DNA of 64,000 bases from a virus. The notes beneath the pieces are model-generated. The model did no database searches and was not told the origin of the DNA. It worked only from the letters and a program-made list of their open reading frames with translations. A program made the position numbers and the translations under genes. Where the stretch lies: the IMG/VR virus record IMGVR_UViG_3300022225_001767; one strand, written 5' to 3'. Below, one piece after another: positions 3,653-50,453 of this stretch. Numbering within the stretch: the stretch's first letter is position 1; each line of letters opens with the position of its first letter.

Positions 3653-4915
3653 ATGAACACCCCAATCCAGCGATCTCTTTTATTAGACACCGTGCTTGAT
3701 GCTTATCATGAGGTAGGTGTCGCGGCTGACAACCTGACAATATACGCAAAGGTTGCCCGTGTTATTGGCATCAACACGCAAGACTATGTCGCTAAGATTG
3801 GACGAGCTAAATCCAGCCGAAACACTTACCATCGCGCCATACGCTACGCGCAACAAACACTAAAAGAAAAAGGGCTTGTTGAGCGTTTGGAGCGAGGGCT
3901 TTGGGGCATTACAAAAAAAGGTAAGCAGACACTCACCGAAATAGACGCAGAACGCCACATGATTGCTTTTTCTAGTGACTTAGGTGTTGCGGTATGGGGA
4001 AATGCATTGCACGTATTCGGCGATACCAAAGCGCAGAAAGATGATATCCATTTATGTCTGACCTCCCCACCTTATCTTGGAATAACCAGAAGCTATGGCA
4101 CTCATCACGATGAGCAAGCATATATTGACTTTTTGCTTTCTGTGCTATTGCCTATTAGAGAGAGAATGGCACCGGGCGCAAACCTTGTGCTTAACATGAG
4201 CAATGACAGCGTATTGAAAGAGCAGTTTGGTGAGCGCTCGCTTTATCTTGAAAAGCTGATTTTGGCGGTTGGCGAAAAACTCGATCTCGCGCTTATGGAC
4301 AGACTTGTTTGGCATGCGCCAGACAAGCCGCCTAAAGGCTACCAAGTGACACACAAAAGAACGCATCTAACCAGTCGATATGAACCCGTATTATGGTTTT
4401 GCAATGATCCTAAACGGTGTCTTGCCGATAACCGCAGAGTTTTATCGTCGTACTCGCCGCAGATGCAAAGACTCGTCAATAACAATGGCGAGTCTACTAT
4501 GCGTAGAGAAAGTGACTATCAGAGCAATACGCGAAAAGGTGGCTTTGGGCGTGACAATGGGGGCAGCATACCCAGTAACGTGCTCACGTTCCCCACACGA
4601 TGCAACAGCAATCGCCTTGTTATAAATGCAGCGCGCGCTCAACAGCTTCCTGTTCACGGTGCACTATACCCTGTAGCACTTGCAGAACACATCATCTCAT
4701 GGCAATGCCCAGAAGGCGGTCTTGTTGTGGACCCTTTTGGAGGCTATGCAACGACAGCATGGGCCGCAGAAAAGTTGGAAAGACGATGGTTAACGTGCGA
4801 GCTCCATTGGGAATACCTGCGCCCCGCTTTATCCAGATTCATCCATCAAGATGGTTTTTTAGTTAACCCTGCTTTCACACAGTTGGACAACTCCGTGCTT
4901 AGAGATTGCGCGTAA
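3653..4915 (+). CDS. Beta-class N4-C/N6-A DNA methyltransferase with N-terminal Mrr_N-like winged helix
   Basis: TSPPY (motif IV) precedes DPFGG (motif I); N-terminus has AQQTLKEKGLVERLERGLWGITKKG. Confidence 0.85.
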   Translation: MNTPIQRSLLLDTVLDAYHEVGVAADNLTIYAKVARVIGINTQDYVAKIGRAKSSRNTYHRAIRYAQQTLKEKGLVERLERGLWGITKKGKQTLTEIDAERHMIAFSSDLGVAVWGNALHVFGDTKAQKDDIHLCLTSPPYLGITRSYGTHHDEQAYIDFLLSVLLPIRERMAPGANLVLNMSNDSVLKEQFGERSLYLEKLILAVGEKLDLALMDRLVWHAPDKPPKGYQVTHKRTHLTSRYEPVLWFCNDPKRCLADNRRVLSSYSPQMQRLVNNNGESTMRRESDYQSNTRKGGFGRDNGGSIPSNVLTFPTRCNSNRLVINAARAQQLPVHGALYPVALAEHIISWQCPEGGLVVDPFGGYATTAWAAEKLERRWLTCELHWEYLRPALSRFIHQDGFLVNPAFTQLDNSVLRDCA

Positions 4916-5779: not shown

Positions 5780-5823
5780 TTGAACCACCACTCTCCTTGT
5801 GTTATCATTAAAAGTGTCAACAC
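5780..5823 (+). promoter_or_regulatory. sigma70 promoter with GTCAACAC leader motif
   Basis: TTGAAC-17-TATCAT-7-GTCAACAC(5816-5823), AAGGAG, ATG 5835. Confidence 0.7.
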
Positions 5824-5834
5824 AAGGAGTAATT

Positions 5835-6371
5835 ATGTCCCTCAAAATATCTACACCTTTCACAGTTATCTCTGGCGGTCAGACTGGCGCTGATGTCGCG
5901 GGGCTTGCTGCTGCACATAAACTAGGTATCCCTACCACAGGTTGGGCCCCAAAAGGCTTTAAAACCGAAAAAGGCCCCAAGAAAATATTGCAGTCGCGTT
6001 ATGGCTTAATTGAAGATGAGAGTAGAGACTACGGCCCTCGAACCGTAAAAAATGCACACGCAGCAGACATTACATTTATCTTTTCCCCTCAGCAAAAGTC
6101 CAGCGGAACGGTAAAAACAATAAACGCCTGCATTGAGTCAGGGTGCGCTTACGTGGTTTACACTGAATGTAATGATGCAACGACGCGGTCTATCTTAAAT
6201 TACTTGATGCTTATGAAACCTATGGTTGTGAATATTGCAGGTAATCGTGAGTCAAAATGTCGTGGGTTGTCAAAGCAGGTTGTTGGGTGTTTAACACCTG
6301 CACTAAAAAGCTACCTAAACGACGTTACGCGGAACGGAATAATCCCCGTTTACCGCCACGCTAAAAAATAA
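5835..6371 (+). CDS. SLOG-superfamily protein (putative molybdenum-carrier-like family)
   Basis: ISGGQTGADVAGL...GWAPKG...RTVKN...NIAGNRES. Confidence 0.8.
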   Translation: MSLKISTPFTVISGGQTGADVAGLAAAHKLGIPTTGWAPKGFKTEKGPKKILQSRYGLIEDESRDYGPRTVKNAHAADITFIFSPQQKSSGTVKTINACIESGCAYVVYTECNDATTRSILNYLMLMKPMVVNIAGNRESKCRGLSKQVVGCLTPALKSYLNDVTRNGIIPVYRHAKK

Positions 6372-9059: not shown

Positions 9060-10838
9060 TTACTTCTTTCTACGCCATACGCAGGCGCCCGCTAGCAACA
9101 CAGCCATCCACCCCATGCTACCACCGCCAGAGCTTCCACCGGCATTGCCGGCATTGCCGCCATTGTTGCCGCCGCCATTATTACCACCATCATTTCCACC
9201 ACCGCTATTATCCGTGGTGTCATTGATGTTGATGACCACTTCATCCACATCTACATTAATATTGTCATTAACAATACGTAGCGTAAAGCTTTCATCATCT
9301 TCCGTAGCGTCTGTCATTGTCGCAATCGCAATGCGCTTTGACGTTTCGCCAGGCTCGAAATTCACTGTGGTGTCTATTGCAGTGTAATCCTCTCCCGCTA
9401 CTGCGGTTCCATTAAATGACTTCACATTCACGGCCACAGCACCATCGCTACCGTTTTCACGAATGATGTCTACAAACGACGAGCTGCCCTCATTAACGGT
9501 TTTGCTCGCTTGCGAGAAAGAGAAAGTACCAGCATTACCTACATCATCCGACCCGATCGTGTAAGTTACAGACTTCACATCATTGTTAATCTCTACCCCG
9601 TTCGGGTTCATAACACGCAACACAAGCGTCTCACTCACTTCAAACTCGTCGTCATTAACAAGCTCAATGGAAAAAGTCGTTCGGCCTGTGCCATCATAAG
9701 TTAAAGGGATAATACCATCACCAACAATATCGTCTTTACTGATGGTGCTTGCATCATAGTCCACCACCAATTCAAAAGAACCGTGTGGCACGCCGTCTTG
9801 ACTTGCGTTAGCGGCATCGAATCGAGACCACAGTACGCTACCAGTCAATGCACCTGTACTTTCGTCCACAAATGCGCTGCCGACATCGATAGTGGCCAAG
9901 CCGTTAATATCGTTCATATCAACAATATTTCTCAACGCCCAACTAAAATCGGTTGGCGTCTCCGCGCGTTTTTCTTCAATTTTTGCAACGCCTTCTCGAT
10001 AGGCTGCGGCAGCATCTGCAACTTGCAACTCACCACAGGCTTCTCCAGTGTCTATGTCAGAGTGTGCAGGATCTGAAAAGAAGTGCTCGTCGGTATAGCT
10101 AAAACCGCGACTATCCATAATGGAATAGTTTGTGTCGCAGCGATCGCCTACAGCATAGGTCGCCAACATATAAGGCGTTGTTGTATCAGACTCTCGATTG
10201 TGTCGAAGACCATCATTGTGACCTAACTCGTGAGCCATGATGGTCACAGAGTGTTGTGTATTTTCATAAGGCGTCACTACCGCAGAATCACCACCTAGCG
10301 TGGCCTTCCCGACAAACGCATTAACATCATCAGTGTCGCGTTTAGCAATCATTACATAATAAGATGCGCCATATTGACCAAACGCGTTACTCATTGCCGC
10401 ACTGCCAGGCTCACCAGATGCGATTTCTGTAAAATAGCGAACAACAGATGACTCTGTCGTGTATAGCTCCGCGTCAACAAAATCATCTGAAATTGGCAGT
10501 ACGCCGACTGATGTTCGCGATAGGCCGATGCCTCCGCGTGCCAGTGTTTCATTATTGACGGCGATACTTTCGTCAATGAAGTTGTATAGCGCAATAGGAT
10601 CGCCATCAAAATAATCACGAAGCACGGCCTCAGAATAGAAAAACAGTATACCCGTCTCCGTTACCGTTGAGGGTGCTGGGTAATCGTAAAATGCCACTTG
10701 AGTAGGTTGTTTATTCTGTGATTCACCTACAAGCACTTTAGGTTCAAAGTATGAACTTGTAGCATGGACAGAACCTGCCGCAGTCGCAAACAAGCCCGCG
10801 ATAATCGCTGATGTTATTTTCTTTTGGTGTTGACGCAT
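9060..10838 (-). CDS. Secreted metzincin (reprolysin/M12B-like) protease with Calx-beta domain(s) and GlyGly-CTERM anchor
   Basis: Signal peptide; HELGHNDGLRH zinc motif plus Met-turn (YSIM); NGTAVAGEDY...TVNFEPGETSK Calx-beta; C-terminal GGGSMGWMAVLLAGACVWRRKK. Confidence 0.85.
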   Translation of the reverse strand: MRQHQKKITSAIIAGLFATAAGSVHATSSYFEPKVLVGESQNKQPTQVAFYDYPAPSTVTETGILFFYSEAVLRDYFDGDPIALYNFIDESIAVNNETLARGGIGLSRTSVGVLPISDDFVDAELYTTESSVVRYFTEIASGEPGSAAMSNAFGQYGASYYVMIAKRDTDDVNAFVGKATLGGDSAVVTPYENTQHSVTIMAHELGHNDGLRHNRESDTTTPYMLATYAVGDRCDTNYSIMDSRGFSYTDEHFFSDPAHSDIDTGEACGELQVADAAAAYREGVAKIEEKRAETPTDFSWALRNIVDMNDINGLATIDVGSAFVDESTGALTGSVLWSRFDAANASQDGVPHGSFELVVDYDASTISKDDIVGDGIIPLTYDGTGRTTFSIELVNDDEFEVSETLVLRVMNPNGVEINNDVKSVTYTIGSDDVGNAGTFSFSQASKTVNEGSSSFVDIIRENGSDGAVAVNVKSFNGTAVAGEDYTAIDTTVNFEPGETSKRIAIATMTDATEDDESFTLRIVNDNINVDVDEVVININDTTDNSGGGNDGGNNGGGNNGGNAGNAGGSSGGGSMGWMAVLLAGACVWRRKK

Positions 10839-10974
10839 TGTGATATCCTCATCTTCAATCCCGTATTACACGGTATGGCTCCCACGCACGCTGCATGGAT
10901 TTACCTTACAATATCAAACTTTAAATATTTTTTCAACTTTTATTCAGATTTTTGGCATGCTGTTCAGCCGCCAT

Positions 10975-11946
10975 TCATTTTCCAATGGCAGGTAAACGTA
11001 ACACCTCTCCCACCCTGATTATCCCTGACTCTCCAATCCCATTCACGTTCGCAACTTGTTCGACAGGGATGCCCGTTCGATGAGAAATTTGATACAAACT
11101 CATTCCCCGTTTTACAACCATCCTTGTCATCCCTGCTGCATCCGGTAAAGACAGAACGGTATCTGCACGCAAATCTTGGTCACTGGTCACGCCAAGGTTT
11201 CCTCTTAAGATCGCGCTCACAGGAACATTCGTCCTCTTGCTTATCGATGCCAAAGAGTCTCCTCTTTTCACCCACACCGCTTTTCTTTTCACCAAGTTCT
11301 CTATTGTGATAACGTAGCGAATGGTTTCGTAAAAAGTGGGAATGCGAATACCGCGCCTACCCTTCACCCTTGTGTGACCGGCGTTATAGGCCGCCAACAC
11401 ATGGCGAAGTTGCTCCCAGTCAGAAGGTTCAGATGCGTCACCATAAAGCAAATAAGACAACCACAGCATATATCTTGCAGCTGCATCTGCTGACGCGTAA
11501 AGGTTTGTGCGGTAGTCCTCGTTTTCTTTAATTAGACTAAAATCTTGTGCAGTTGCGGCCATAAATTGAAAACATCCTACTGCCCCGGCGTGACTGATAC
11601 TGCCCTCACACCGCCCACTCGACTCGACTTTGCTTTGGTAAAATAGCAAGTCATCGGGCAATCCATAGTAACGACTTATCGTATTTAACTTAACTCTGCT
11701 CAATTCGCCATGGCTAATGGACTGATAATATTGACGATGTTCCGCAGGTGGTATCTTTAAAAGAGAAGGGTTAGACTGGTATGCTTTCAGTCTTGGGTTC
11801 ACATAATGCTGATAGGGTATCGCAGACATGGTCGCCCCCGTTTTAGCATCGATAAATAAAGTAAGACCTTGATTGCTGTGTTCCTCATACCAAAAGAACA
11901 CGCCTAACGCGCTGCATAGCAGAACCCCGATTATTCTCTGTATCAC
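10975..11946 (-). CDS. Lytic transglycosylase (SLT) with two LysM domains
   Basis: VESSG catalytic Glu, GAVGCFQFM, LAAYNAG; two C-terminal LysM repeats; N-terminal TM segment; GTG start after GGGGAG. Confidence 0.88.
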   Translation of the reverse strand: MIQRIIGVLLCSALGVFFWYEEHSNQGLTLFIDAKTGATMSAIPYQHYVNPRLKAYQSNPSLLKIPPAEHRQYYQSISHGELSRVKLNTISRYYGLPDDLLFYQSKVESSGRCEGSISHAGAVGCFQFMAATAQDFSLIKENEDYRTNLYASADAAARYMLWLSYLLYGDASEPSDWEQLRHVLAAYNAGHTRVKGRRGIRIPTFYETIRYVITIENLVKRKAVWVKRGDSLASISKRTNVPVSAILRGNLGVTSDQDLRADTVLSLPDAAGMTRMVVKRGMSLYQISHRTGIPVEQVANVNGIGESGIIRVGEVLRLPAIGK

Positions 11947-12075
11947 TCTATCTCCCCGCTTTTTATTTTTTGTTATTATACCACTCAACACCCACAAGTT
12001 CAATAAAATAACAGGCCGTCAGTTTTAGTGCTAATGTGATAACATCAATACACAATCTATCATCTGGGATGAAAT

Positions 12076-13272: not shown

Positions 13273-13384
13273 ACACCTGCATCCTTAAATGCAATGCATG
13301 TGCCATCGAAATGATGGAATATTAATTGCATTGCTCTATTTCATATACACACTTTGCAAATTCATTTTTATTAGGGGTTTTACA

Positions 13385-14062
13385 ATGAATGTAAAAGCGG
13401 CTTTTTTTGCACTATTTGCCTTTTCCGGCATGGCGCAAGCAGACCTCGTAGCAACGGACTGGAAAACAAGCGGTGACGCTCTTGCCACACTGCATGAAGA
13501 AACGGGCATTGAGTGGCTCGACCTGACTCAAACCGACGGCATGTCTATTCAGGAAGTCATCAACCAAACTGCCCAGGGCGGTACATTCGAAGGGTGGCGC
13601 TTGCCAACTTTTGATGAAATCGACACGTTTGCTCGCTATGCGTTCAACGGAAAGCTTCCGGCCAACTCAACGCAAATACAAGGCGGAAATATTAACGAAC
13701 CTGTTTACCGTAAATTTACGGACATAATGGGCCTGACACATACGGCAAACAATAGGCGCCACGCATTCGGCTTAGGCGCAGACGATAATGGTGACATTTA
13801 TTCCTTTGGTGTATTGGGCTATACCTCAGGCGGGACATCCACGTTTTTTCGAAGTGGGTACAGTGAGGGATCTTATACCCTTGACACGGCAAGACCAGAG
13901 GCGGGCATTTATCTCGTTTCTGACGGCGGGGTGACGTACTCTTCAATCAACGATCCTACACTCAATGCGAGAAACCCAAATGCACCAATTAACAACGTGC
14001 CAGCGATGGGTTTAGCAGGCCTTGCTCTTGCAGGACTGGCGTTTAGGCGAAAAAAACAGTAG
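13385..14062 (+). CDS. PEP-CTERM-like surface protein
   Basis: Signal peptide; TGIEWLDLT motif; C-terminal NNVPAMGLAGLALAGLAFRRKKQ; sigma54-like TGGAATATTAATTGC at 13315-13329. Confidence 0.75.
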   Translation: MNVKAAFFALFAFSGMAQADLVATDWKTSGDALATLHEETGIEWLDLTQTDGMSIQEVINQTAQGGTFEGWRLPTFDEIDTFARYAFNGKLPANSTQIQGGNINEPVYRKFTDIMGLTHTANNRRHAFGLGADDNGDIYSFGVLGYTSGGTSTFFRSGYSEGSYTLDTARPEAGIYLVSDGGVTYSSINDPTLNARNPNAPINNVPAMGLAGLALAGLAFRRKKQ

Positions 14063-14078
14063 ACACACCACCAGAACT

Positions 14079-14106
14079 AAAAAGCCTTGCATTAGCAAGG
14101 CTTTTT
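14079..14106. terminator. Bidirectional intrinsic terminator
   Basis: AAAAAGCCTTGC-ATTA-GCAAGGCTTTTT. Confidence 0.85.
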
Positions 14107-14355
14107 GCTTTCTTTACTTAGTATCGCGCTAGCCTTCAGCACATCATTGTGTAATTTCTCAAAACGCTTTACCGCTCTGAATATAGAGTCTCTATTCACA
14201 CGCGTTGTCGCGTAGCTGGCCATGGAACCTCCATTAATGAGATAATTTTCAAGGCATGTCGCCACATCTTTGCTTTTACACCCAACGTGGGGAAGAACGC
14301 ACCTGATATAAGCAGGGTCAAACATTCCCTTTAGCACCTTTTTTCCATTTACCAT
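14092..14355 (-). CDS. Small HTH protein, PapB/FocB-like
   Basis: KSKDVATCLENYLINGGS...VNRDSIFRAVKRF resembles the PapB pattern; overlaps the dndC-like stop. Confidence 0.5.
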   Translation of the reverse strand: MVNGKKVLKGMFDPAYIRCVLPHVGCKSKDVATCLENYLINGGSMASYATTRVNRDSIFRAVKRFEKLHNDVLKASAILSKESKKPC

Positions 14356-17300
14356 TGCACACCCCCTTGTGCCACACTGACATCATTTAGTTTAAACGTG
14401 TTGCGGATCACACATGCTGCATTATCTTTTTTCTCCCATAATGCAGCACGAGCATCCAACGCCTCAAGCATCGCTTCTCTTGTGCCATCATTTTGATGCT
14501 TAGCCCAGCACATAAGCGTATTTAAGAACGCACCTTCGTTAAGCGCATCTTTCACATACGACACGGCACTTCGTTGCATGTCGGCCATTTTTTCGTGCAT
14601 CATTAGCGCGTGGTTGTTTACCGTTAGACGCGCCAGAGGGTTCTCCTCAAAATACTTCACCGCATCACGGTCGAGTAGCTTATACCAACCTTCAGGAGAA
14701 GAAAAATAGTCCATAAAGTGTGTCATTGCACCGTGGTATAGTAGCCAGTCACGAGGCACATTGATGTGGTCAAAATGCTTAAGCTCACCTTTCACGGCAT
14801 CCAGCATCACGAAGTAATTAGTGATTTCCTTAAAGCCTTCAATGTGATTGTTGTACAAACGCGTCAACTGCTGGCATACACCGTCAGAAAGATCTGACCA
14901 ATACTGATTGTAACGCTCTTTAAGCGCACGTCGCATTTCGTTGCGTGGTGCTCTTACGTTATCAAGTAAATATCTCGCTTTGTAGCTTCGATACGCTTTC
15001 ATATCCATCACGTCATCAATAGCAAGACCGATAGTGGCTTTTATTTCAGGTCGATATGTGCTCAGTTTAATCGGAATTCCAGCAGCACCGTCAAGCGCCA
15101 TTTGACGTAGCATGTCATCATCCAACATATACAGCCCCATCGACGCAAAATATTCCGTGCGCTTGATGATCCTTGCAGCATGACGCTTACTGTCTTGTGT
15201 TAGGTCAAAAATACCAAATCGCATCATCTGTTCAAAGGCGCGGGTACCGCTGTACTGATAAATACTTTCGCCTCGGCTTTCGCGGCGTTCCACAGTCTCG
15301 TCGTGTAACTGTAGCGCGCGCTCTATCCCATCCACCTCCATCCAATCTGCGGTACGAATATGGTCAAGCTGGTATCCACCCGTTACCGTTGACTCGAAGT
15401 AGTCCATTGTCCAATGTTGATAATTCAACTCAGGAACATATACAGGCACTGACTGCGTCACAGCCTCTTTATAAAGTGGAACCGGAGAACGCTCTTTAAA
15501 AGAGTATGTATTAAGGCTGGTGCGACCACGCTCGGTGATACGCATAACTCCACCTTTACGGCTCACTTTCTTCTTGGCACGGCGTGATGCCTGTATTTTC
15601 CTTTCCACATTTCGAGGTGATGACAAAAAGCGCTCAACCCCTTCAATGGCTGAAATAAAGTTAATATCCAGCGTTTCAGATGGGCGAAGGTGCGCATACT
15701 TTTCTCTGTCTTTAGGACTAAGAAAGTAATTGGCGTCACGCATTGGCATACGTGAGCTCATTGGCACTGGCTGCCACTCACAGTTTTCTGCTTTTTCATT
15801 GCCTAGGGTTAAAGGCATTGTGGCTGTTGGTCGCTGTGACACCGCGCCCGCCGTTGGCACCACCATAATGGCATCAGGGATATCATCAACCGTCGCACCT
15901 ACCGGGTCAACATCAGGGTAAGGGATGCGTTCACCGTTATATGTTTTGTCCCACACCGCCATCGCACGGTAGTGAGGCAGACGAACACCATCACGTGAGT
16001 GTATAAGGCTTAAAAACAACGAAATATCGGCTGACATCGGTTTTATCAAGTGACGCTGCGCATATTGCTTGTATACCGCTGCAAACTCTTCGCGATCTTC
16101 TTCACTGAGCAAAGGATCATTAATAATGTCGGCATAACCTTCATCGTCCATTTCTCGCCCATCAGCCACTAGCTGCTTAAAGCGTTCTGCACGGATGCGG
16201 TCGTCGTGTGTCGCCTGGCAAAGCAACCAGATGATTTTATCAATCGTTTTGGCGTTTAATACATTTGGCTGTAATGCCACTGCACCTGTTGTTTCATCAA
16301 CCGCTCTTGCATGCCATGTACGATTATTAATATCTTGGGCAACGTGCATGATGTAGTTTCTAACTTTAAGAATGTTGCCGCTGATAGCACGGTGACGTTT
16401 TTGCATCGCTTGCGCTTCACCAGACTTATCGGTAATACTTTTTGCACACAGGTAGCAACCAGTTCGCGCACTACCGCCACAACCACCCGCTTTTTGAGAG
16501 TCGCCTTTTAGGCGTTTTGATGATGTTGGGCAAGTGCCATCTTTTGAGTCGCTGTAAATCATATGAAGCAAACGATGGTTCTTCGCAAATGATGGAATGG
16601 GGGCGTTGCCCGAGTAGCTGTCAACCAGTGGCTTAGTGCCGGCTCGACGTAGAATAATCCACACTTCATCTGTGGTCATGCTAACAATAGGCGCAAATAC
16701 ACGTTCGTTATTTTGGTCGCACTCCACCAAGTCATCTGCTGTTAGGGTATCTTGCCCACGTTTTTTCAAAGAGGCGGCACGTTTAGCAGACTCTTCTGAG
16801 CGAGAACCAAGCAGGGTAACAACACGGTTACCATAATCTTTTGCCACTTGACGCTCAATGATCTCAGCATTGTCCACTTTCATGATTTGACTACAGTCAT
16901 TGTTAACGCGTGCCGTAGAGATTATTTTAAGACCACTAAGGAAAAGAGACGCCCACTGCTTAGCAAGAGGAGGTAGACCCACTCGCATATCGATGTTAAG
17001 CCCTTGCTTTTTACCAAAAGCGACAAGGCGATCTCGTTCATAAAGCGACAAAATTTGAACCAAGTGATTCTCTACGCCGGTATCAATGTTCGTGAACACT
17101 AAAGGGTGGTCCGCAGGCACTTTCCCTTCTTCAATGAGTTCTCTTAGCGCCTGAATAGCTGCCAGCATAACAACGGTACTGTCTTTACCAAAACTCGTCG
17201 CACACACGCACACATAGGATGTCATGATGACCTTAATGCTGTCTACGGCCTCTCTGAATAGCGCATAAGCTCTATTTTCAGCCGCAGCCGCCTCGACGCG

Positions 17301-17369
17301 ACCTGATGTTGCAGAACCTAAATCTATTCCCGCGATAAGATCTTGTGGTCGAATTGTGTTTACTGACAT
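14349..17369 (-). CDS. DndC-like PAPS-reductase-family Fe-S protein with long C-terminal extension
   Basis: PP-loop SFGKDS, CSQIMK, LLGSRSEESAKR, APIVSMTTDEVW, CP...CGGSARTGCYLC...DKS; total length 1006 aa. Confidence 0.82.
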   Translation of the reverse strand: MSVNTIRPQDLIAGIDLGSATSGRVEAAAAENRAYALFREAVDSIKVIMTSYVCVCATSFGKDSTVVMLAAIQALRELIEEGKVPADHPLVFTNIDTGVENHLVQILSLYERDRLVAFGKKQGLNIDMRVGLPPLAKQWASLFLSGLKIISTARVNNDCSQIMKVDNAEIIERQVAKDYGNRVVTLLGSRSEESAKRAASLKKRGQDTLTADDLVECDQNNERVFAPIVSMTTDEVWIILRRAGTKPLVDSYSGNAPIPSFAKNHRLLHMIYSDSKDGTCPTSSKRLKGDSQKAGGCGGSARTGCYLCAKSITDKSGEAQAMQKRHRAISGNILKVRNYIMHVAQDINNRTWHARAVDETTGAVALQPNVLNAKTIDKIIWLLCQATHDDRIRAERFKQLVADGREMDDEGYADIINDPLLSEEDREEFAAVYKQYAQRHLIKPMSADISLFLSLIHSRDGVRLPHYRAMAVWDKTYNGERIPYPDVDPVGATVDDIPDAIMVVPTAGAVSQRPTATMPLTLGNEKAENCEWQPVPMSSRMPMRDANYFLSPKDREKYAHLRPSETLDINFISAIEGVERFLSSPRNVERKIQASRRAKKKVSRKGGVMRITERGRTSLNTYSFKERSPVPLYKEAVTQSVPVYVPELNYQHWTMDYFESTVTGGYQLDHIRTADWMEVDGIERALQLHDETVERRESRGESIYQYSGTRAFEQMMRFGIFDLTQDSKRHAARIIKRTEYFASMGLYMLDDDMLRQMALDGAAGIPIKLSTYRPEIKATIGLAIDDVMDMKAYRSYKARYLLDNVRAPRNEMRRALKERYNQYWSDLSDGVCQQLTRLYNNHIEGFKEITNYFVMLDAVKGELKHFDHINVPRDWLLYHGAMTHFMDYFSSPEGWYKLLDRDAVKYFEENPLARLTVNNHALMMHEKMADMQRSAVSYVKDALNEGAFLNTLMCWAKHQNDGTREAMLEALDARAALWEKKDNAACVIRNTFKLNDVSVAQGGVQW

Positions 17370-17382
17370 GGGTATTCCTAGC

Positions 17383-17431
17383 GTGTTGACGTATTAAGCA
17401 TATCATAACAAACGTTGACCCTAGAGTCAAC
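17383..17431 (-). promoter_or_regulatory. sigma70 promoter with GTCAACAC motif and GTTGAC-N6-GTCAAC palindrome
   Basis: TTGACT-17-TATGAT-11-GTCAACAC(17390-17383); palindrome 17414-17431 over the -35. Confidence 0.75.
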
Positions 17432-17492
17432 GCCTGTATTCCATTCTATTGATGTTATCGACATCACGCCAAAGTGAACGACGGGTTTAGAG

Positions 17493-17792
17493 CTAGGCTG
17501 AACAGAGTGCGTTTTCTTTCGCAAAAGCAATAGCCTCTTTCGAATGGTAGATGATCAGCGAATGAACACCTGCCTGCAAAGGCCCGTCGCTTCCCACCTC
17601 CCACTCACGCGCGCTGGCACTTGCGGTTAGTCTGGTTACAGCCTCTTTTCGTTCACTATCAGGGAACAGCACAACCGTATAATCATGCTCACTTTTCCCA
17701 ATAATACTCATAACGGGCATGGTCAATCCGGGGCACCGTAATTCCATGGCATTGACCACGCCTCGGGACAAGTCGGATAATGCAATCGCCAT
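17493..17792 (-). CDS. Hypothetical protein
   Basis: 99 aa, starts 3 nt after the dndB-like stop. Confidence 0.6.
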   Translation of the reverse strand: MAIALSDLSRGVVNAMELRCPGLTMPVMSIIGKSEHDYTVVLFPDSERKEAVTRLTASASAREWEVGSDGPLQAGVHSLIIYHSKEAIAFAKENALCSA

Positions 17793-17795
17793 AGC

Positions 17796-19013
17796 TTAGC
17801 CCTCCTTCGCTTCTTGCTTCCACTGCTCACGGAACATCTTCACTTCACGCTCGATGTCATCAAGCTCCGGTGGCGCAGGAATGTTCATTTCTTTTAACAG
17901 ATAAGACGCGACCGCTTTATGGTTCCAAGGACGGTCTTCGTAACCACCACGGAAGTTCTTACAACGCCCCACCCACTCTTTGTTGTTATGAGTAAGGTCG
18001 ATAGTCGACCACTTGTCTAAAAGCCCCCAGTCTGCTTTACCGGGACCTTTCGCCTCCAAGTTCATCTTCACAACCTTGGCAACAATGGCCAGCGACTTGA
18101 AGAATGTGGCGGTACCAATGACCGTCTTCTCTCTTACATCAGGCGCTGACATGTCTTTGTTCATTGCGCGACCAAAGGTAGGATTTCGGCATAGTTCAGA
18201 AAAGAACTTGCTTGTAAACCCTGCGATATAAGCACGATCCTCTGGCTTTTCCAATAGGTTCTGAGCGGTGGCTTTCGTGGTGCCCGTCAGCTTCAGGATG
18301 AATGCCCCTATTTGATTGAGTGTCCATAAATACGGCGACTCTGAGCTTGATGTAACGGATGCCTTTGTGTAGCTCACATTGCCCATGAGGGGGTATTGCT
18401 GAGATAGTTCTCGGCTAAACACAGACACTACCTTTCGCGAATCCATGGCCGCTTTTTGGCTCTGATTAAAGGCCTTCGAGCTTGTGTTGATGTCCACGCA
18501 GATTTGGTTGTCTTTTGTGGCACCCATTGAGCGAATAAACTTAACGTCAAAGTGCTGTTCCGACAAATCAATGCCATCAAATTTCGATTGCATTAAGATT
18601 TCAATGCCACCACGTCGACCTTGCCCATCTACTAAATAGCGAAAGCTTTCAGCAGGTATTGTTAGGGCATACACATTCCCGACGACCGGCGTTAATGTGA
18701 AATCCTCTACAATAGCCATCAGTCCCGGAAAAATAAACACGGCGGTATTATCTTTCACATAATTTGCCACGCCATTTGCGCGTGAATGGTCTAAGTCTCG
18801 CTGGATCATGATGTGAGACGGCATATCAATATCCTGAGGCACCCGAGGGAATCCCTCAATCAAGGTGTCCATTGGCACCTTACCCACATAAGTAAGTCGC
18901 TCCCCTTCACGCCCTTCTGTGACGTAGAAAGTTAAATCTTTCTTTACACGAAGCGCATTGTAAAGCGCATTCAGTTTTTCGTTATCTTCGAATGTAAGTT
19001 GTACTGGTAGCAT
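17796..19013 (-). CDS. DndB-like (DGQHR-family) protein
   Basis: IQRDLDHSRANGVANYV...FPGL...YLVDGQGRRGGIE...DINTSSK...LWTLNQI matches the DndB layout; DGQHR reads DGQGR. Confidence 0.82.
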   Translation of the reverse strand: MLPVQLTFEDNEKLNALYNALRVKKDLTFYVTEGREGERLTYVGKVPMDTLIEGFPRVPQDIDMPSHIMIQRDLDHSRANGVANYVKDNTAVFIFPGLMAIVEDFTLTPVVGNVYALTIPAESFRYLVDGQGRRGGIEILMQSKFDGIDLSEQHFDVKFIRSMGATKDNQICVDINTSSKAFNQSQKAAMDSRKVVSVFSRELSQQYPLMGNVSYTKASVTSSSESPYLWTLNQIGAFILKLTGTTKATAQNLLEKPEDRAYIAGFTSKFFSELCRNPTFGRAMNKDMSAPDVREKTVIGTATFFKSLAIVAKVVKMNLEAKGPGKADWGLLDKWSTIDLTHNNKEWVGRCKNFRGGYEDRPWNHKAVASYLLKEMNIPAPPELDDIEREVKMFREQWKQEAKEG

Positions 19014-19032: not shown

Positions 19033-19081
19033 GTGTTGACTGCATAATCAACAATCTACCTGAGAGTGTTGCCATTGTCAA
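19033..19081 (-). promoter_or_regulatory. sigma70 promoter with GTCAACAC leader motif
   Basis: TTGACA-17-TAGATT-12-GTCAACAC(19040-19033); imperfect palindrome GTTGAC-N6-ATCAAC at 19035-19052. Confidence 0.7.
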
Positions 19082-19884: not shown

Positions 19885-19905
19885 TTAAACCGCTCAAATT
19901 AATGC

Positions 19906-20041
19906 GTTCAAACCTGATCATCAGTTTTGAACCAACGCTTTCGCGCCTGACGTGAGCAGCTACGCCAGTGAAACACACTGCAATTTATGTTCGTTCACCG
20001 TGAGAATAACCGGTGGACCGGTTTTCTCGGGCTGTTTGAAC
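19906..20041 (-). ncRNA. Candidate omegaRNA/right-end structure of the TnpB element
   Basis: Hairpin GTTCAAAC-CTGA-TCA-TCAG-TTTTGAAC (19906-19932) and hairpin GAGAAT-AACCGG-TGGA-CCGGTT-TTCTC (20002-20028) overlapping the ORF 3' end. Confidence 0.5.
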
Positions 20042-21621
20042 AAAGCAGTGTGTTTCTTCACAATTGCTTTCACTTTCCCCCAACGTTGCAGCGGGCCGCC
20101 GTCAATACTCACGGTCTTTGAGCGGGCACTGCAAAGTTGTGTACCAACATTATGTGGCACGGAAAAACGAATGCGATCATGTTTGAGTCCCAGCGTCCGG
20201 CGCGCAATGACTTGCGCGGCGGCCTGATGGGTCGTATTTTGGGTGGAATGGTATTTAAACATTCCGATAATCGATGTCATGGCCGGGTTGACGGCTTTGC
20301 AGGGTAAGCCCTCGCGGTAGCACCGGCGTTCAATCAGCGACAGCGCCATATCGTACGCAAAGGCGGACAGCATCGCTCTGTGATGCTTATTTGCGGTTTC
20401 CTTCATGGCTTGCTTCTTCCTGCTGAAGTCTAGTTTTTCAATCCCGACGCCGACATGGTGTTGCTTGGCAACCTCCACGACACGTTTCACGGCATCGCCG
20501 ATCATCGCCATGCGTTGCCCAGTTGTCAGTCCTTTGGCGGATGCCGGGCAGGGGATATCTTCGACATGTTTTTTGTTACCATCCTGAGTGACGACGCACA
20601 CGGCTAGGTGGTCAGCATTAACATCGACGCCTAAGCAGCCATTTTCGTAGCTTCCTGCTATCTCTTCAGGGGCCGGCTCTTCGACGGTCATCGCCAGTGT
20701 CCAGCCGAATTTATGGCGCATGAAGCGCATGGTTAAGGGTTGACCATACGAAGACAACACTTCATTTTTGGTTTGCGGACGCAACTCACCGGTTTTCCGA
20801 TCTTTCACCCAAGGTGACGAACGGGTCAGCGCTTTCACGTTAGCTGCCCGACGACGCTCATTCTCCGCACAGGCCGCTAATATATTGGACTTTCCGTAGT
20901 TAAAATCGAAACCTGACAGCTCAACTTTACCGCCACCCAGAGCATCTGGTAGGCGCAAAGACAACCTGAACTCACCGTCGTTATCAACGTACAGTTGCGC
21001 GCCCTGATTGCCGCAGGTTTCATCCTTCGAGCCCAGCACCATGAACTGTGATGAACGGGAGCTTTGCCACTCGTCAAGCCATTCAGCATGGTTGTTCAGG
21101 TTATTTTCTTTGAGAAAAAATTGCTTGTTAAACAACTTTTTCGATCCAAAACACATGGCGGGGATCTTGCCGATGTTATCCGCAATTTTCTCAATTTGAG
21201 TAGATAGCCGGGCCCGATACCGGGGTTTTTGGTGCGCTTTGAAACGGACTTTTTGAATTTCAGACGGTACGCCGCCTGTTTTTGACAGCATATTCGCTTG
21301 GTCACGAAGCCGCTCAATGGTTTTTGAGACCGCTTCGATACGCTCTTTTTTATCAACCTGATAAAGCTTATCTAGTTCGCGTTTTGAATCCAGCTTGCCG
21401 GTTAACGTGCGCAGCACCGCATTATATTGCCTAGCGCTGATCTGATATGTGCTGATAAAGTGACGTTTTCGCTCATTGGCCGTCATTTTATCCGCGCAAA
21501 GGCTTGCGTAAAGCTTGCGTTCCACACGCCCGAACAACGCCGCATACGCAGAAAGTGAACTCTCTGTTTCGGCATCAATATCGGCTGACTTGATCAGCGT
21601 GGTGTATGTGGACGTCTGCAT
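19960..21621 (-). mobile_element. tnpB: Solo TnpB-related RuvC protein (IS200/IS605 or IS607 accessory type), no TnpA adjacent
   Basis: RuvC-I GVDVNADH, RuvC-II IEKLDF, VNPAMTS...HQAAAQVIARR; no zinc finger; sequence appears GC-richer than its flanks. Confidence 0.78.
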
Positions 21622-21865
21622 AGTTCAGACTATACACCACAACGTTTTTGATGTGAACGTCTACCGTATAATTTCGCAGAAAAAACCGCCATCAATGTCA
21701 TCACATCACGGCACAGTGTCTGTTCAAAAGTGGTTTCATCGTCGCCATCAAGACGATATCGCCGGTGACCACCGAGCGTCTACGAAAAGATTACCAAAAG
21801 TTCACATTAAAGTTAATTTTTTTTGTTGATTTCTCACACCTACAGTGTCTTATTTTATATTTTTG

Positions 21866-21908
21866 TTGACCGCACCGTCACCACTTGATATTCTGTACAC
21901 GTCAACAC
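21866..21908 (+). promoter_or_regulatory. sigma70 promoter with GTCAACAC leader motif
   Basis: TTGACC-17-TATTCT-6-GTCAACAC(21901-21908), GAGGA, ATG 21924. Confidence 0.75.
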
Positions 21909-36867: not shown

Positions 36868-36910
36868 TTGATTTCTCACCCCTGTTTTGAGATAATAACC
36901 ATGTCAACAC
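36868..36910 (+). promoter_or_regulatory. sigma70 promoter with GTCAACAC leader motif
   Basis: TTGATT-17-GATAAT-6-GTCAACAC(36903-36910). Confidence 0.7.
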
Positions 36911-36927
36911 AACAGGGTAAAACCACA

Positions 36928-38769
36928 ATGCATAACACACCATTAGCTTCTTTTAGCTCTATCGATGATCCTCAACTTCCAGTCGAGGTTATCCGTGTAA
37001 TCAAAGATCGTTTAGGTGACATACCATCATCAGGCATTGCCGCAGGCCAAGCGGTTGCCAGTGCCATCTTTTATCTTCTAGGTCTCCATGATGGCGTTTT
37101 CAACGACATTGACGTATTTCTCCCCAAATCAAGCGATATCGCTAAGCTCATGGGTGAGTCTTGGAACCCCAAACTTCGCGCAGACAATGACCTTGTTACA
37201 CTCACACACGGTTATCGAGAGACGGGTTTTTCTTCACCCGTTTTCAAAAAAGGTCATTATTACATCATTGGCTCATGCTATTTAGGCAACGTCAATATTG
37301 TTGTTGTCGACAATTTTAATCACTCCCAAATTGGCGCTCAGGATATCATTGGCGGTTTCGACATCAACGCATGTGAAGCAGCGATTGATCTTGAGTCTAT
37401 GACGCTTACGGTATCAGATGCCTTTCGAGACTTCATTAAACACTGGGTACTTGATATCACCACCTATCACACACCAGCACACACCGCGCTTCGCATTGCA
37501 AGAAAGTCACGAGCATTGAACGCTCGCGTCAACAGCACCGCCATGCTTCGTTTGCAAACCATGCTCGCCATCGCAGAAGCCGAAGAGCGACATTATTCGC
37601 TCAATTACACGCGCGGCATGCTAATGGCAGAAAATAACGCGGAAAAAGCAGCTAATGAGCCTCTGGTATGCGAGCACTTCACTTTCCGTGATGTAACCAT
37701 TCAAATTCCGATGGAAGAGGAAGAGGAAGCGTTCATGACGCTAATGCAGCTTTCACCAAAAGCCTGTCACGATGGCGTGGTGGACGCTTACATGTCAGTC
37801 ATTTCCTTTTTAGGGGCACCCGACTTTAGTGTTGCCGCCGCGATTTTTCCTTATCTATGGGATCGTGTCGCCAATAAAGGTGATGATAGCGCCGTGAAGT
37901 GGTTAATAGAAGAAGCGACCGCGCGCGACGCGATGAAACGGGATTGGTTGAGTCGCCCTCAGAGTGAAGAAGAAGAAGCGCTTTATGCAGAAGCATGCGA
38001 AAGGGGCGAGCGTCGTGATGCGCTACTGATGATCTTTATTTGCGCCTTAAGACACCATAACCCTCGTGTATTCAAGTCTCAATCAACATGCATTAACCGC
38101 GCGCTAAAAATGGCAGAGAAACACCCTTTAGCGTTCAGTAAAAATGAAAAGCACCTGACATCTCTAGATGATGCTATCTTGTTTGGGAAAAACCTAAACT
38201 GGTTAGAGAAAAAGCGACTTCATTTAGTGATAGGGATGTATGAAGATAACACGACCTTACTTCCCGCGCTGTCCAACAGACAGTATAAAGCAGCGTTAAT
38301 GCCAATTCTTGACGCCATTTTCTCTAGGATGGAGAACGAACGCGTGACGCCCATTGGAGAAAAGCTAGTCAATGCTCTTAACGCAACAGGCAAAATAAAA
38401 GTGACAGAGTTGACCTCAGAGCTAGAAATGCTTGAGCAAGGTTATGCACAAAAGCATTGTGTTGGTGGTTATTTTCATCAGGTAAAATCAAGGCAGTGTA
38501 TTATTCTTGATGTAGTAACACCTGAAGAGAAAAAATACACCGTGGAATACCGTGTAGTCACACGCGACGGCGAATTTGGTTTTACCAAAAACCAATGCAA
38601 AGGCGTCAACAACCGCCCCATGCCACAAGAGATTAAAAAGCTACTTCCTGAATTCTTCAGCGACAATGGGCACGAGAAAGAGTGGTTCCTAAAAAACACT
38701 TACGCTTCACAGCGAGGTCTACAAGGGAACGAGATAGATTTTGATTATGACGATGATATACCTTTTTAG
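36928..38769 (+). CDS. Class-II nucleotidyltransferase-like / PcfJ-domain fusion with SSB-like acidic tail
   Basis: AGQAVAS...NDIDVF, FDINACEAA, TPAHTALR; LTSELEMLEQGYAQKHCVGGY (PcfJ); ends DFDYDDDIPF. Confidence 0.7.
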   Translation: MHNTPLASFSSIDDPQLPVEVIRVIKDRLGDIPSSGIAAGQAVASAIFYLLGLHDGVFNDIDVFLPKSSDIAKLMGESWNPKLRADNDLVTLTHGYRETGFSSPVFKKGHYYIIGSCYLGNVNIVVVDNFNHSQIGAQDIIGGFDINACEAAIDLESMTLTVSDAFRDFIKHWVLDITTYHTPAHTALRIARKSRALNARVNSTAMLRLQTMLAIAEAEERHYSLNYTRGMLMAENNAEKAANEPLVCEHFTFRDVTIQIPMEEEEEAFMTLMQLSPKACHDGVVDAYMSVISFLGAPDFSVAAAIFPYLWDRVANKGDDSAVKWLIEEATARDAMKRDWLSRPQSEEEEALYAEACERGERRDALLMIFICALRHHNPRVFKSQSTCINRALKMAEKHPLAFSKNEKHLTSLDDAILFGKNLNWLEKKRLHLVIGMYEDNTTLLPALSNRQYKAALMPILDAIFSRMENERVTPIGEKLVNALNATGKIKVTELTSELEMLEQGYAQKHCVGGYFHQVKSRQCIILDVVTPEEKKYTVEYRVVTRDGEFGFTKNQCKGVNNRPMPQEIKKLLPEFFSDNGHEKEWFLKNTYASQRGLQGNEIDFDYDDDIPF

Positions 38770-42417: not shown

Positions 42418-42460
42418 TTGACACCCCAAGCTATTTTTGAGATAATAAGATGGTCAACAC
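42418..42460 (+). promoter_or_regulatory. sigma70 promoter with GTCAACAC leader motif
   Basis: TTGACA-17-GATAAT-6-GTCAACAC(42453-42460), AGAGG, ATG 42474. Confidence 0.8.
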
Positions 42461-42473
42461 AAGAGGATTCAAC

Positions 42474-50297: not shown

Positions 50298-50453
50298 AAA
50301 ACGACGCCCTCTTTTTGCATGACTTATTTTAACATTGCTAACCCACATTCTCAACAAAATATCACCACTAGTAAGGAATATTTATTCTGTTTTTTTATTG
50401 TATTTTGTGCAGGGTTAGGTATAATGAAACAACTCTAATTTAGGAGATTAAAC

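What the first reader, a model, noticed from the sequence alone, without database searches (positions are those of the whole stretch)
14092..19013. DndB-like plus a 1006-aa DndC-like protein without dndA/D/E: possible non-canonical DNA modification module
Seen: dndB-like (DGQGR), then a 99-aa ORF, a separate promoter, the DndC-like gene (PP-loop SFGKDS; CP..CG..R.GCxxC cluster in roughly the first 450 aa, then about 550 aa with no motif I recognise), and a coupled PapB-like ORF. No SMC-like DndD, DndE, cysteine desulfurase, Ssp or DndFGH genes are in the window. Known: DndC (like SspD and TdpC) is the PAPS-reductase-family enzyme of phosphorothioation, DndB represses dnd transcription, and host IscS can replace DndA. 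Inference: the C-terminal extension may supply DNA targeting, giving a compact self-modification or anti-restriction enzyme, or a different adenylation/sulfur chemistry.
Basis: partly seen in the sequence, partly recalled or inferred. Interest (0 to 1): 0.75.

Follow-up and report, generated by a model that had tools for sequence, protein, structure and literature searches.

The report
Plasmid DndB–TusA–long-DndC sulfur module
A large marine plasmid-like element carries an intact four-gene cassette (a ParB-like DndB relative, a small TusA-like sulfur carrier, a 1006-residue DndC-like sulfur-inserting enzyme and a small regulator) that most likely puts sulfur on the element's own DNA without the usual Dnd helper proteins, a chemistry nobody has tested.

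Summary
In detail: the four minus-strand genes, their motifs and two separate promoters lie at the stated coordinates, and no dndA, dndD, dndE or P-loop partner is in the 64 kb.

New here: the unnamed 99-aa ORF is a divergent TusA-like sulfur carrier with a conserved Cys-Pro. Equivalent small ORFs precede the long DndC in 6 of 7 related contexts (not in Shewanella L001), and in an eighth TusA is fused to the enzyme. This points firmly to sulfur relay.

The 1006-aa protein has a DndC-type head: PP-loop SFGKDS and all canonical Fe-S cysteines. It scores far below the DndC cut-off. Its roughly 560-residue tail matches no known fold and is found only behind DndC-type heads.

Complete plasmids with the module (Shewanella, Alteromonas) lack dndD, dndE and any desulfurase, as do IncC and Pseudomonas plasmids carrying solitary shorter relatives. 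Shorter relatives occur on about 1,200 plasmids, mostly conjugative. Both promoters share the element's leader tag with orphan DNA methyltransferase genes.

Best reading (about 0.5): a self-modifying, anti-restriction DNA sulfur mark. The target is inferred. All proven phosphorothioation systems need an NTPase that is missing here.

This scan found the same module type before on other DNA (Aeromonas and IncHI plasmids). I found no published description.

The parts
19053..19081 (-). Sigma-70-like promoter of the DndB-like/TusA-like operon (TTGACA-17-TAGATT)
   Evidence: 10 of 12 matches; sequence read. A consensus match only.
19033..19040 (-). Leader tag GTCAACAC, 12 nt after the -10 and 20 nt before the DndB-like ATG
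   Evidence: 20 copies in the window against 2.7 expected. The tag also stands before the orphan methyltransferase genes.
17796..19013 (-). DndB-like DGQHR-domain protein (ParB/Srx fold), 405 aa, motif DGQGR
   Evidence: Pfam DndB 4.2e-31. TIGR03187 88.6 bits, above its cut-off. TIGR03233 DndB equivalog 70.8 bits, below its cut-off of 328. Q71, R72, R78, D129, G130, Q131 and R133 are invariant across plasmid homologs and a canonical DndB.
17493..17792 (-). TusA-like sulfur-carrier protein, 99 aa, Cys20-Pro21; starts 3 nt after the DndB-like stop
   Evidence: It has no Pfam hit alone. Profile-profile match to the syntenic small ORFs of relatives: 93.4%, E 2.5e-7. The joint profile hits E. coli TusA structures 1DCJ and 3LVJ at 7e-7, with the catalytic Cys aligned. 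TusA is fused to the enzyme in Alteromonas RG65.
17402..17430 (-). Sigma-70-like promoter of the long-DndC operon (TTGACT-17-TATGAT, TG extended)
   Evidence: A consensus match only.
17383..17390 (-). Leader tag GTCAACAC, 11 nt after the -10 and 14 nt before the ATG
16035..17369 (-). Long DndC, residues 1-445: DndC-type PP-loop ATP pyrophosphatase head. PP-loop S59-S64; invariant C159; Fe-S ligands C280, C297 and C305 (C308 nearly invariant)
   Evidence: Alignment to a canonical DndC. The two best NCBIfam models are both DndC-type.
15807..16034 (-). Long DndC, residues 446-521: conserved linker (S454, H457, R459, D460, G461, Y484, P485 invariant)
15354..15806 (-). Long DndC, residues 522-672: beta-rich domain with invariant C530 and a basic segment (residues 590-630, pI 12) holding the invariant motif RGRTS
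   Evidence: No fold match.
14352..15353 (-). Long DndC, residues 673-1006: helical domain. Conserved to about residue 813 (H689, G719, R737, T738, R794, R809, N810, R813); variable tail after that
   Evidence: Only generic helical matches, Z below 8. Weakly shared with shorter plasmid DndC-like proteins.
14092..14355 (-). 87-aa weakly PapB-like putative regulator, overlapping the long-DndC stop by 7 nt
   Evidence: Pfam PapB 0.043. PHROG 10566 regulator 4e-4. Conserved in the 77% relative L003.
14078..14107 (.). 13-bp hairpin with T-runs on both sides, between convergent genes; likely a two-way terminator
   Evidence: A poly(A) loose end at 14056 in an oligo-dT RNA run belongs to the convergent plus-strand gene.

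Best explanation
This is a self-contained sulfur-relay nucleic-acid modification cassette of a large marine plasmid-like element.

Shown: it has four genes in two tagged transcription units. They encode a DndB-like ParB-fold protein, a TusA-like carrier, a DndC-type PP-loop/4Fe-4S enzyme with a family-specific extension of about 560 residues, and a small regulator. No desulfurase, DndD, DndE or other P-loop partner is encoded nearby or on related whole plasmids.

Inferred mechanism:
1. Host IscS loads a persulfide on Cys20 of the TusA-like protein.
2. The carrier passes the sulfur to the long DndC. Acceptor candidates are invariant C159 or C530, beside the cluster held by C280, C297 and C305.
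3. The PP-loop spends ATP to adenylate an oxygen of the target, and sulfur replaces it.
4. The most likely target is the element's own DNA, as a backbone phosphorothioate or possibly a thio-base. The DndB-like NTP-binding protein and the basic C-terminal extension would do the DNA handling that DndD-DndE, SspB-SspC or BrxC do elsewhere.
5. The mark would protect the element from restriction in new hosts, alongside the co-regulated orphan methyltransferases.
For: Domain calls.

DndC-type head: PP-loop and all four Cys align with a canonical DndC. The two best NCBIfam models are both DndC models.

TusA link: small TusA-like ORFs lie just upstream of the enzyme in the window, L003, L004/L005, L010, L011 and L012. 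TusA is fused N-terminally in Alteromonas RG65 and in P0087.

Synteny: the order DndB, small ORF, long DndC is conserved from 31% to 77% enzyme identity.

Missing partners: whole plasmids W01 and W02, which carry the module, and W03 and W04, which carry solitary shorter relatives, lack DndD, DndE and class V aminotransferase, while the control W05 is positive.

Setting: the module sits among orphan C5 and N6/N4 methyltransferases here and in relatives. Both promoters carry the tag GTCAACAC that also precedes the methyltransferase genes.

Precedent: a phage PAPS-reductase-Dam fusion without DndDE gives anti-Dnd protection (bioRxiv 10.1101/2021.05.05.442762). Aca-regulated phage PAPS reductases have been proposed as anti-defence (PMC13551039).

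Presence in RNA libraries: the stretch is found in RNA libraries of four studies.
Against: Every experimentally established phosphorothioation system needs a P-loop NTPase (DndD, SspC or BrxC). Gut isolates with a PAPS-reductase gene but no such partner gave no PT dinucleotides (bioRxiv 10.1101/2024.06.03.597175).

The extension has no recognisable DNA-binding or any other known fold.

The DndB-like gene is missing beside some relatives (L012, IncC, pBM908).

The TusA assignment of the window's own ORF rests on profile comparison and synteny, not on a direct family hit.

No modification data exist. RNA-library contigs do not prove transcription.
Confidence: 0.5

Rival explanations
1. Counter-defence by interference rather than by an autonomous mark. 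The long DndC, with its TusA-like and DndB-like partners, plugs into or competes with a host's own Dnd/Ssp machinery. It might use host DndD-DndE to get plasmid DNA marked quickly after entry, or it might blunt DndFGH-type restriction.
For: A phage PAPS-reductase-domain protein without DndDE overcomes host Dnd defence. The module lacks the NTPase that all proven PT systems need. It has a plasmid and anti-restriction setting.
Against: The family sits on about 1,200 plasmids of many genera, whereas Dnd systems occur in only a few percent of genomes (4.3%). The intact PP-loop, cluster cysteines and dedicated sulfur carrier argue for real catalysis.
Confidence: 0.17
2. The enzyme thiolates something other than DNA, such as tRNA, another RNA, or a nucleotide or cofactor. 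TusA-fed PP-loop enzymes such as MnmA or TtcA-type enzymes do this. The plasmid setting would then be incidental.
For: In E. coli, TusA feeds tRNA thiolation and cofactor synthesis (family knowledge; structures 1DCJ and 3LVJ hit). PP-loop Fe-S thiolases of RNA share the chemistry (text). A 5'-deoxynucleotidase gene follows the long DndC in two plasmids.
Against: The best family models are both DndC models, with no hit to TtcA, MnmA, ThiI or CysD at comparable scores. It pairs with a DndB-type ParB-fold protein. It is embedded among DNA methyltransferases and shares their leader tag.
Confidence: 0.15
3. An IbrA/IbrB (YbdN/YbdM)-type regulatory pair. A PAPS-reductase-like ATP-using protein and a ParB-like DNA binder act together on gene expression, not on DNA chemistry.
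For: ParB-like plus PAPS-reductase-like pairs of that kind are common on phages and plasmids (earlier notes of this scan). There is a weak hit to PHROG 2302 (6.6e-7).
Against: The head is DndC-type with the full Fe-S cysteine set. A sulfur carrier is part of the cassette or fused to the enzyme. The stronger PHROG hit is 424.
Confidence: 0.06
4. The modification half of a restriction or defence system carried by the plasmid, whose killing component is an unrecognised neighbour or the DndB-like ParB/Srx protein itself acting as a nuclease.
For: ParB/Srx proteins can be nucleases or NTPases (PMC10853773). PADLOC models for DndB and DndC match.
Against: No conserved nuclease or other third partner accompanies the cassette across contexts. 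No DndFGH, SspE or other PADLOC hit appears among the neighbours tested. The adjacent TnpB-like gene is an insertion absent from 97%-identical copies.
Confidence: 0.07
5. An ordinary assimilatory PAPS reductase or other housekeeping sulfur enzyme.
For: Pfam PAPS_reduct hit.
Against: There is no C-terminal ECGLH-type motif. It has a DndC-type Fe-S cluster and a DndC-type best match. It is 1006 aa long, sits on a plasmid, and has a DndB-type partner.
Confidence: 0.02

Closest known systems
DndABCDE DNA phosphorothioation system (DndC sulfurtransferase, DndB regulator/ParB-fold protein)
   Same: The DndC-type PP-loop and all cluster cysteines align. DndC models are the best family hits. A DGQHR-domain DndB-type partner lies directly upstream with its active-site residues kept. 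A host desulfurase could substitute for DndA, as is known for IscS (text).
   Different: There is no DndD and no DndE in the window, nor on two whole plasmids carrying the module (Shewanella, Alteromonas) or two carrying solitary shorter relatives. Scores are far below both equivalog cut-offs (89.9 vs 290.4; 70.8 vs 328). The PP-loop reads SFGKDS, not SGGKDS. The enzyme carries an extra 560-residue extension. A TusA-like carrier is inserted in the relay.
SspABCD and BREX type 4 (BrxP-BrxC) phosphorothioation
   Same: Both use a PAPS-reductase-domain sulfur inserter with other DNA-handling partners in place of DndDE. BrxP is likewise a long fusion protein.
   Different: Those systems need the ATPase SspC or BrxC and the DUF4007/SspB module. 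None is present here, and the window has no P-loop protein except a PIF1 helicase. There were no PADLOC Ssp or Brx hits.
Phage PAPS-reductase-Dam fusion that overcomes Dnd defence in Vibrio crassostreae phages (Piel et al.; bioRxiv 10.1101/2021.05.05.442762)
   Same: A PAPS-reductase-domain protein encoded on a mobile element, without DndDE, tied to DNA methyltransferases, in marine gammaproteobacteria, with a demonstrated anti-defence effect.
   Different: That protein is 479 aa and fused to a methylase. Here the enzyme is 1006 aa and unfused, with a TusA-like carrier, a DndB-like partner and a unique extension. No function has been tested.
IscS-TusA sulfur relay of E. coli (structures 1DCJ, 3LVJ)
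   Same: The profile of the small ORF family matches TusA end to end, with the persulfide-carrying Cys-Pro aligned.
   Different: The window's copy is too diverged for a direct Pfam or NCBIfam hit. Its client is a DndC-type enzyme rather than TusBCD/MnmA.
Solitary long DndC-like proteins of IncC, IncHI and Pseudomonas megaplasmids (annotated 'PAPS reductase family protein', function untested)
   Same: The same DndC-type head occurs on about 1,200 plasmid records, 846 of them conjugative. The IncC copy lies next to dcm methyltransferase genes. Part of the helical tail is weakly shared.
   Different: They are 604-817 aa with no DndB-like neighbour. They lack the beta-rich basic domain of the roughly 1000-aa marine lineage.
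IbrA/IbrB and YbdN/YbdM pairs
   Same: A PAPS-reductase-fold protein paired with a ParB-fold protein on mobile DNA.
   Different: The head here is DndC-type with an Fe-S cluster and a sulfur carrier. It makes only a weak PHROG 2302 hit.

Membership tests
PAPS_reduct superfamily (Pfam PF01507) | Score at or above the gathering cut-off; PP-loop motif | tested here: met
   29.8 bits against a cut-off of 22.5. SFGKDS at residues 59-64, invariant S59, K62, D63 and S64 in 35 homologs.
DndC (TIGR03183 / NF005316 equivalogs) | Score above the curated equivalog cut-off | tested here: not met
   89.9 bits against 290.4, and 95.5 bits against 536. A canonical DndC scores 580.8 and 661.
DndC (TIGR03183 / NF005316 equivalogs) | Cysteines that hold the 4Fe-4S cluster, plus the conserved upstream Cys | tested here: met
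   C159, C280, C297 and C305 are invariant, and all four plus C308 align with the cysteines of a canonical DndC.
DndC (TIGR03183 / NF005316 equivalogs) | Operon partnership with the DndD ABC ATPase and DndE | tested here: not met
   None in the window. None on two whole plasmids carrying the module or two carrying solitary shorter relatives, while the control plasmid is positive. The rest of this replicon was not searchable.
DndB / DGQHR domain | Pfam DndB and TIGR03187 DGQHR domain above cut-off; DGQxR motif | tested here: met
   108.7 bits against 29.1, and 88.6 bits against 58.85. D129, G130, Q131 and R133 are invariant, including in a canonical DndB.
DndB equivalog (TIGR03233) | Score above the equivalog cut-off | tested here: not met
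   70.8 bits against 328.
TusA (Pfam PF01206) | Family hit with the conserved Cys-Pro persulfide site | tested here: inconclusive
   The window's ORF alone has no hit. With its syntenic equivalents it hits E. coli TusA at 7e-7, with the Cys aligned. Profile-profile comparison gives 93.4%. Relatives score 4.4e-5 as a free ORF and 7.9e-9 fused, the latter above the cut-off.
SspABCD | SspD together with the SspC ATPase and SspB | tested here: not met
   No P-loop protein other than PIF1 in the window. PADLOC gives only DndB and DndC models.
BREX type 4 | BrxP with BrxC, PglZ and BrxL | tested here: not met
   No PADLOC Brx hit among the six cassette and neighbour proteins. No P-loop partner. The remaining ORFs were not scanned with PADLOC.
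Assimilatory PAPS reductase (CysH) | C-terminal ECGLH catalytic motif | tested here: not met
   No ECGxH string in the protein.
Any DNA phosphorothioation system | Sulfur actually found in DNA | not testable with these tools
   Needs LC-MS/MS or iodine cleavage.

The most novel reading that the evidence does not exclude
A fourth route to sulfur-modified DNA that needs no DndD, SspC or BrxC-type NTPase. A TusA-like carrier feeds a long DndC whose own extension, helped by a ParB-fold NTP-binding partner, finds the DNA. Plasmids would carry it from host to host as a portable protective mark. The product could be a phosphorothioate with new sequence rules, or a thio-base not yet known in DNA.
Probability: 0.3. 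Interest if true: 0.85.

Novelty: new variant of a known kind. Interest (0 to 1): 0.6.

Why it matters
Relatives of this enzyme sit on about 1,200 sequenced plasmids, most of them conjugative, including IncC and other resistance plasmids. Their function has not been tested in any paper I could find.

If the cassette marks DNA with sulfur by itself, two things follow. It would show that phosphorothioation-type chemistry does not need the ATPase thought essential. It would also add a transferable anti-restriction mark to the known ways plasmids establish in new hosts.

The marine cassette is a convenient entry point. It is intact, compact at 4.9 kb, and carries its sulfur carrier and DNA-binding partner with it. 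It is abundant in ocean metagenomes: the exact protein is on record in 115 blocks of the collection, on contigs up to 486 kb.

Tried and rejected
- Near-identical DNA in phage and plasmid collections: none.
- Whole-genome search of the window's replicon: no genome is held. Metagenome records behind L013, L017 and L018 cannot be searched.
- Sequence profile of the extension against PDB: only noise, E at or above 0.08. The full-length profile gave nothing.
- Fold of residues 440-1006 (pLDDT 82): Foldseek against PDB gave nothing below E 0.27. VIA-align wide gave only generic helical bundles, Z at or below 7.9. AFDB clusters returned only other PAPS-reductase-domain proteins. The ESM Atlas gave TM at or below 0.23.
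- Fold of residues 522-672 alone (pLDDT 81): no PDB match, no VIA row with Z of 2 or more, and AFDB returned only the same family.
- Atlas feature search of residues 522-830: no usable hit.
- These blanks do not show that the fold is new.
- BLASTP of the 99-aa ORF against the fused TusA domain: no alignment. Its own small profile against PDB: nothing.
- The 107-aa ORF at the same position in the Shewanella plasmid shows no TusA features.
- Profile comparison of the extension with the IncC and Pseudomonas long DndC tails: only a 40-column weak match, E 0.028.
- Papers: no description of a DndB-TusA-long-DndC module was found. Maindola 2014 and Piel 2022 (journal version) are not held.
- RNA-library contigs cover the whole cassette in four studies, but contigs cannot show strand, ends or level, and DNA carry-over is possible. 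The contig ends near 19889 mark a structural difference (a TnpB-like insertion), not a transcript start.

Full report
OBSERVATION

- The 405-aa protein is a DGQHR-domain DndB relative. It hits Pfam DndB at 4.2e-31 and TIGR03187 at 88.6 bits, above its cut-off. It scores only 70.8 bits against the 328 needed for the DndB equivalog. It carries DGQGR.
- The 1006-aa protein passes Pfam PAPS_reduct (29.8 vs 22.5). It is best matched by two DndC models, TIGR03183 (89.9 bits) and NF005316 (95.5 bits). Both scores are far below their cut-offs.
- I checked that NF005316 is a DndC-type model: a canonical DndC from a Rhizobium dndBCDE-desulfurase operon scores 661 on it.
- PADLOC gives DndB and DndC models.
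- SFGKDS and the cysteine cluster are present.
- The two top-scoring promoter-like sites of the region lie in the two intergenic gaps.
- The 87-aa ORF overlaps the enzyme's stop codon. It is weakly PapB-like (Pfam 0.043; PHROG regulator 4e-4).

ABSENCE OF PARTNERS

- In the window, tblastn with canonical DndD, DndE and DndA finds nothing. Only one of 55 ORFs has a Walker A motif, a PIF1-type helicase.
- Pfam scans of 40 ORFs add no ABC/AAA partner, no class V aminotransferase and no DndE-like protein.
- No genome is held for this window, so the rest of the replicon is untested.
- As a proxy I searched four complete plasmids for DndD, DndE and Aminotran_5: two that carry the module (Shewanella xiamenensis, Alteromonas mediterranea RG65) and two that carry solitary shorter relatives (IncC pSN254, Pseudomonas pBM908). 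None has any of them. The Rhizobium control plasmid has all three.

WHAT THE ELEMENT IS

- The window has no tRNA genes.
- It holds four orphan DNA methyltransferases, a PIF1 helicase, an SLT-LysM transglycosylase, two PcfJ proteins and many unknowns.
- The exact 1006-aa protein is on record in 115 blocks of the collection, on contigs up to 486 kb. These come from Tara, JGI and ENA ocean metagenomes and marine MAGs.
- Named relatives are plasmids of Shewanella, Alteromonas, Pseudoalteromonas and Vibrio.
- One relative lies next to an RctB-type replication gene.
- I read it as a large marine gammaproteobacterial plasmid-like element.

THE FAMILY

- 47 proteins match end to end, mostly 950-1040 aa, down to 31% identity.
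- Conservation runs through residue about 813. Invariant residues are the PP-loop (S59, K62, D63, S64), C159, C280, C297, C305, then C530, R597, R616-T617-S618, R627, H689, G719, R737-T738, R794 and R809-N810-R813.
- The last roughly 190 residues vary.
- Aligned with a canonical DndC, all four cluster-related cysteines and C159 coincide. The PP-loop reads SFGKDS instead of SGGKDS.
- The head alone has relatives on 1,207 plasmid records: 846 conjugative; Klebsiella 250, Pseudomonas 167, Escherichia 136.
- The IncC copy is 817 aa and lies beside a dcm methyltransferase.

THE NEW POINT: THE 99-AA ORF IS A TusA-LIKE SULFUR CARRIER

- Aligning it with the small ORFs at the same place in relatives exposed a shared Cys-Pro motif, ELRCPGLTMPV here.
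- The 75-aa equivalent in L004 hits Pfam TusA at 4.4e-5 over the whole model.
- The precomputed annotation marks the equivalents in L011 and L012 as weak TusA.
- In the Alteromonas RG65 plasmid a TusA domain is fused to the N-terminus of the enzyme: Pfam 7.9e-9, above cut-off, and NCBIfam TusA 3.4e-8. The same holds in P0087.
- About five of 112 full-length family members have the PP-loop shifted by roughly 70 residues, as such a fusion would give.
- A profile of the small ORFs hits E. coli TusA structures 1DCJ and 3LVJ at 7e-7, with the catalytic Cys aligned.
- The window's own subgroup matches the rest at 93.4% probability, E 2.5e-7.
- Alone it is too diverged for a direct hit. The assignment is therefore strong for the family and good but indirect for this copy.
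- Six of seven contexts in relatives have the free carrier and an eighth has the fusion. The Shewanella plasmid (L001) does not show it.

THE EXTENSION

- AlphaFold2 with the family alignment gives confident models: pLDDT 82 for residues 440-1006 and 81 for 522-672.
- The model shows a beta-rich part and then a long helical part.
- No library gave a meaningful match.
- A profile search of 1.84 billion representatives finds the extension in only 113 clusters. It always lies behind a DndC-type head: 111 of 112 full-length hits carry the cysteine cluster. It is therefore not a portable targeting module.
- Its one suggestive feature is a conserved segment of pI 12 around the invariant RGRTS motif.
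- Part of the helical region is weakly shared with the shorter plasmid enzymes.

REGULATION AND EXPRESSION

- Both promoters are followed 11-12 nt after the -10 by GTCAACAC.
- This word occurs 20 times in the window against 2.7 expected. It also precedes the methyltransferase genes at 21885 and 23711 and the helicase.
- The cassette thus belongs to the same regulon as the element's orphan methyltransferases.
- RNA-library contigs of four studies cover the cassette. In one run, neighbouring contigs differ about 75-fold in depth, which DNA carry-over alone would not give. Contigs still cannot prove transcription of these genes.

MECHANISM

Shown: the gene set, the DndC-type catalytic residues, the sulfur-carrier link, and the lack of a desulfurase and of any P-loop partner.

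Inferred from family knowledge:
1. Host IscS passes sulfur to Cys20 of the carrier.
2. The carrier passes it to the long DndC.
3. ATP-dependent adenylation of the target oxygen is followed by sulfur substitution.

That the target is DNA is an inference. It rests on the DndC-type head, the DndB-type partner whose ParB/Srx active-site residues are invariant, and the methyltransferase neighbourhood and shared regulation. A published DndB-like protein binds ATP and GTP (bioRxiv 10.1101/2025.10.10.680097). It could therefore supply the nucleotide-driven DNA handling that is otherwise missing, but that is speculation.

A protective role is suggested by the phage PAPS-reductase-Dam fusion that defeats Dnd restriction.

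The main counter-argument is that Dnd, Ssp and BREX type 4 all need an NTPase, and PAPS-reductase genes without one gave no PT in gut isolates.

COMPARISON AND NOVELTY

- It works like the modification half of Dnd. It fails the DndC and DndB equivalog tests and the DndDE partnership test, so I do not file it as a Dnd system.
- The literature I could search reviews Dnd, Ssp and Brx machinery in depth (PMC10853773, PMC12839542, PMC12707154) without describing this cassette.
- This scan has met the same module type before on other DNA: Aeromonas conjugative plasmids with an 860-aa enzyme, and solitary 791-794-aa enzymes on IncHI plasmids.
- I reached the TusA assignment independently before reading those notes, and it agrees with them.
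- What this window adds is an intact copy of a separate marine lineage with the longest extension, the fusion evidence, the near-exclusive pairing of extension and head, and the link to the element's tagged regulon.

VERDICT

A real, conserved, untested variant of DNA-sulfur modification machinery. Interest is moderate to high. The mechanism is half shown and half inferred.

Noticed in passing
window, 20 sites (e.g. 848, 17383, 19033, 19864, 21901, 23693, 26986, 36903): The word GTCAACAC occurs 20 times against 2.7 expected. It sits in the 5' leaders of many genes, including both cassette operons, two orphan methyltransferases and the PIF1 helicase.
   Followed up: partly
window 19890-21880: The TnpB-like gene (19960-21621; NCBIfam TnpB 1e-11) is an insertion. 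Copies of the element 97% identical (L013) have other genes there, and contigs from other samples diverge from the window at 19889.
   Followed up: partly
window 13289-14062 (+): This convergent 257-aa gene (weak Lcl_C hit) lies on contigs of depth 14,000-55,000 in one metatranscriptome, against 732 for the long-DndC contig. An oligo-dT library shows a poly(A) loose end at 14056.
   Followed up: no
L006 9769-10374 and L002 13450-14031: A yfbR-type 5'-deoxynucleotidase gene lies shortly downstream of the long DndC in both IncC pSN254 and the Alteromonas RG65 plasmid. This hints at a link to the nucleotide pool. There is none in this window.
   Followed up: no
window 5799-6371 and 3653-4915: A circularly permuted YpsA SLOG-family protein (Pfam 3e-30) and an N6/N4 methyltransferase with an Mrr_N reader domain lie in the same accessory region.
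   Followed up: no
window 36868-38769 and 49191-50357: Two PcfJ-domain proteins, the second also with a KTSC domain.
   Followed up: no
window 9060-12003; L003, L013: A Calx-beta metalloprotease-like protein and an SLT-LysM transglycosylase keep their place next to the cassette in relatives from 77% to 97% identity.
   Followed up: no
P0036 (L004), around residue 310: In one sublineage the fourth cluster cysteine (C308 here) is replaced by His (GCSVH). This fits a cluster held by three cysteines.
   Followed up: no
window 42450-43217 (+): A weak tblastn match (E 0.013, 35 residues) of canonical DndB to this 255-aa ORF. It may be a second ParB-like protein or chance. There was no Pfam support.
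   Followed up: partly
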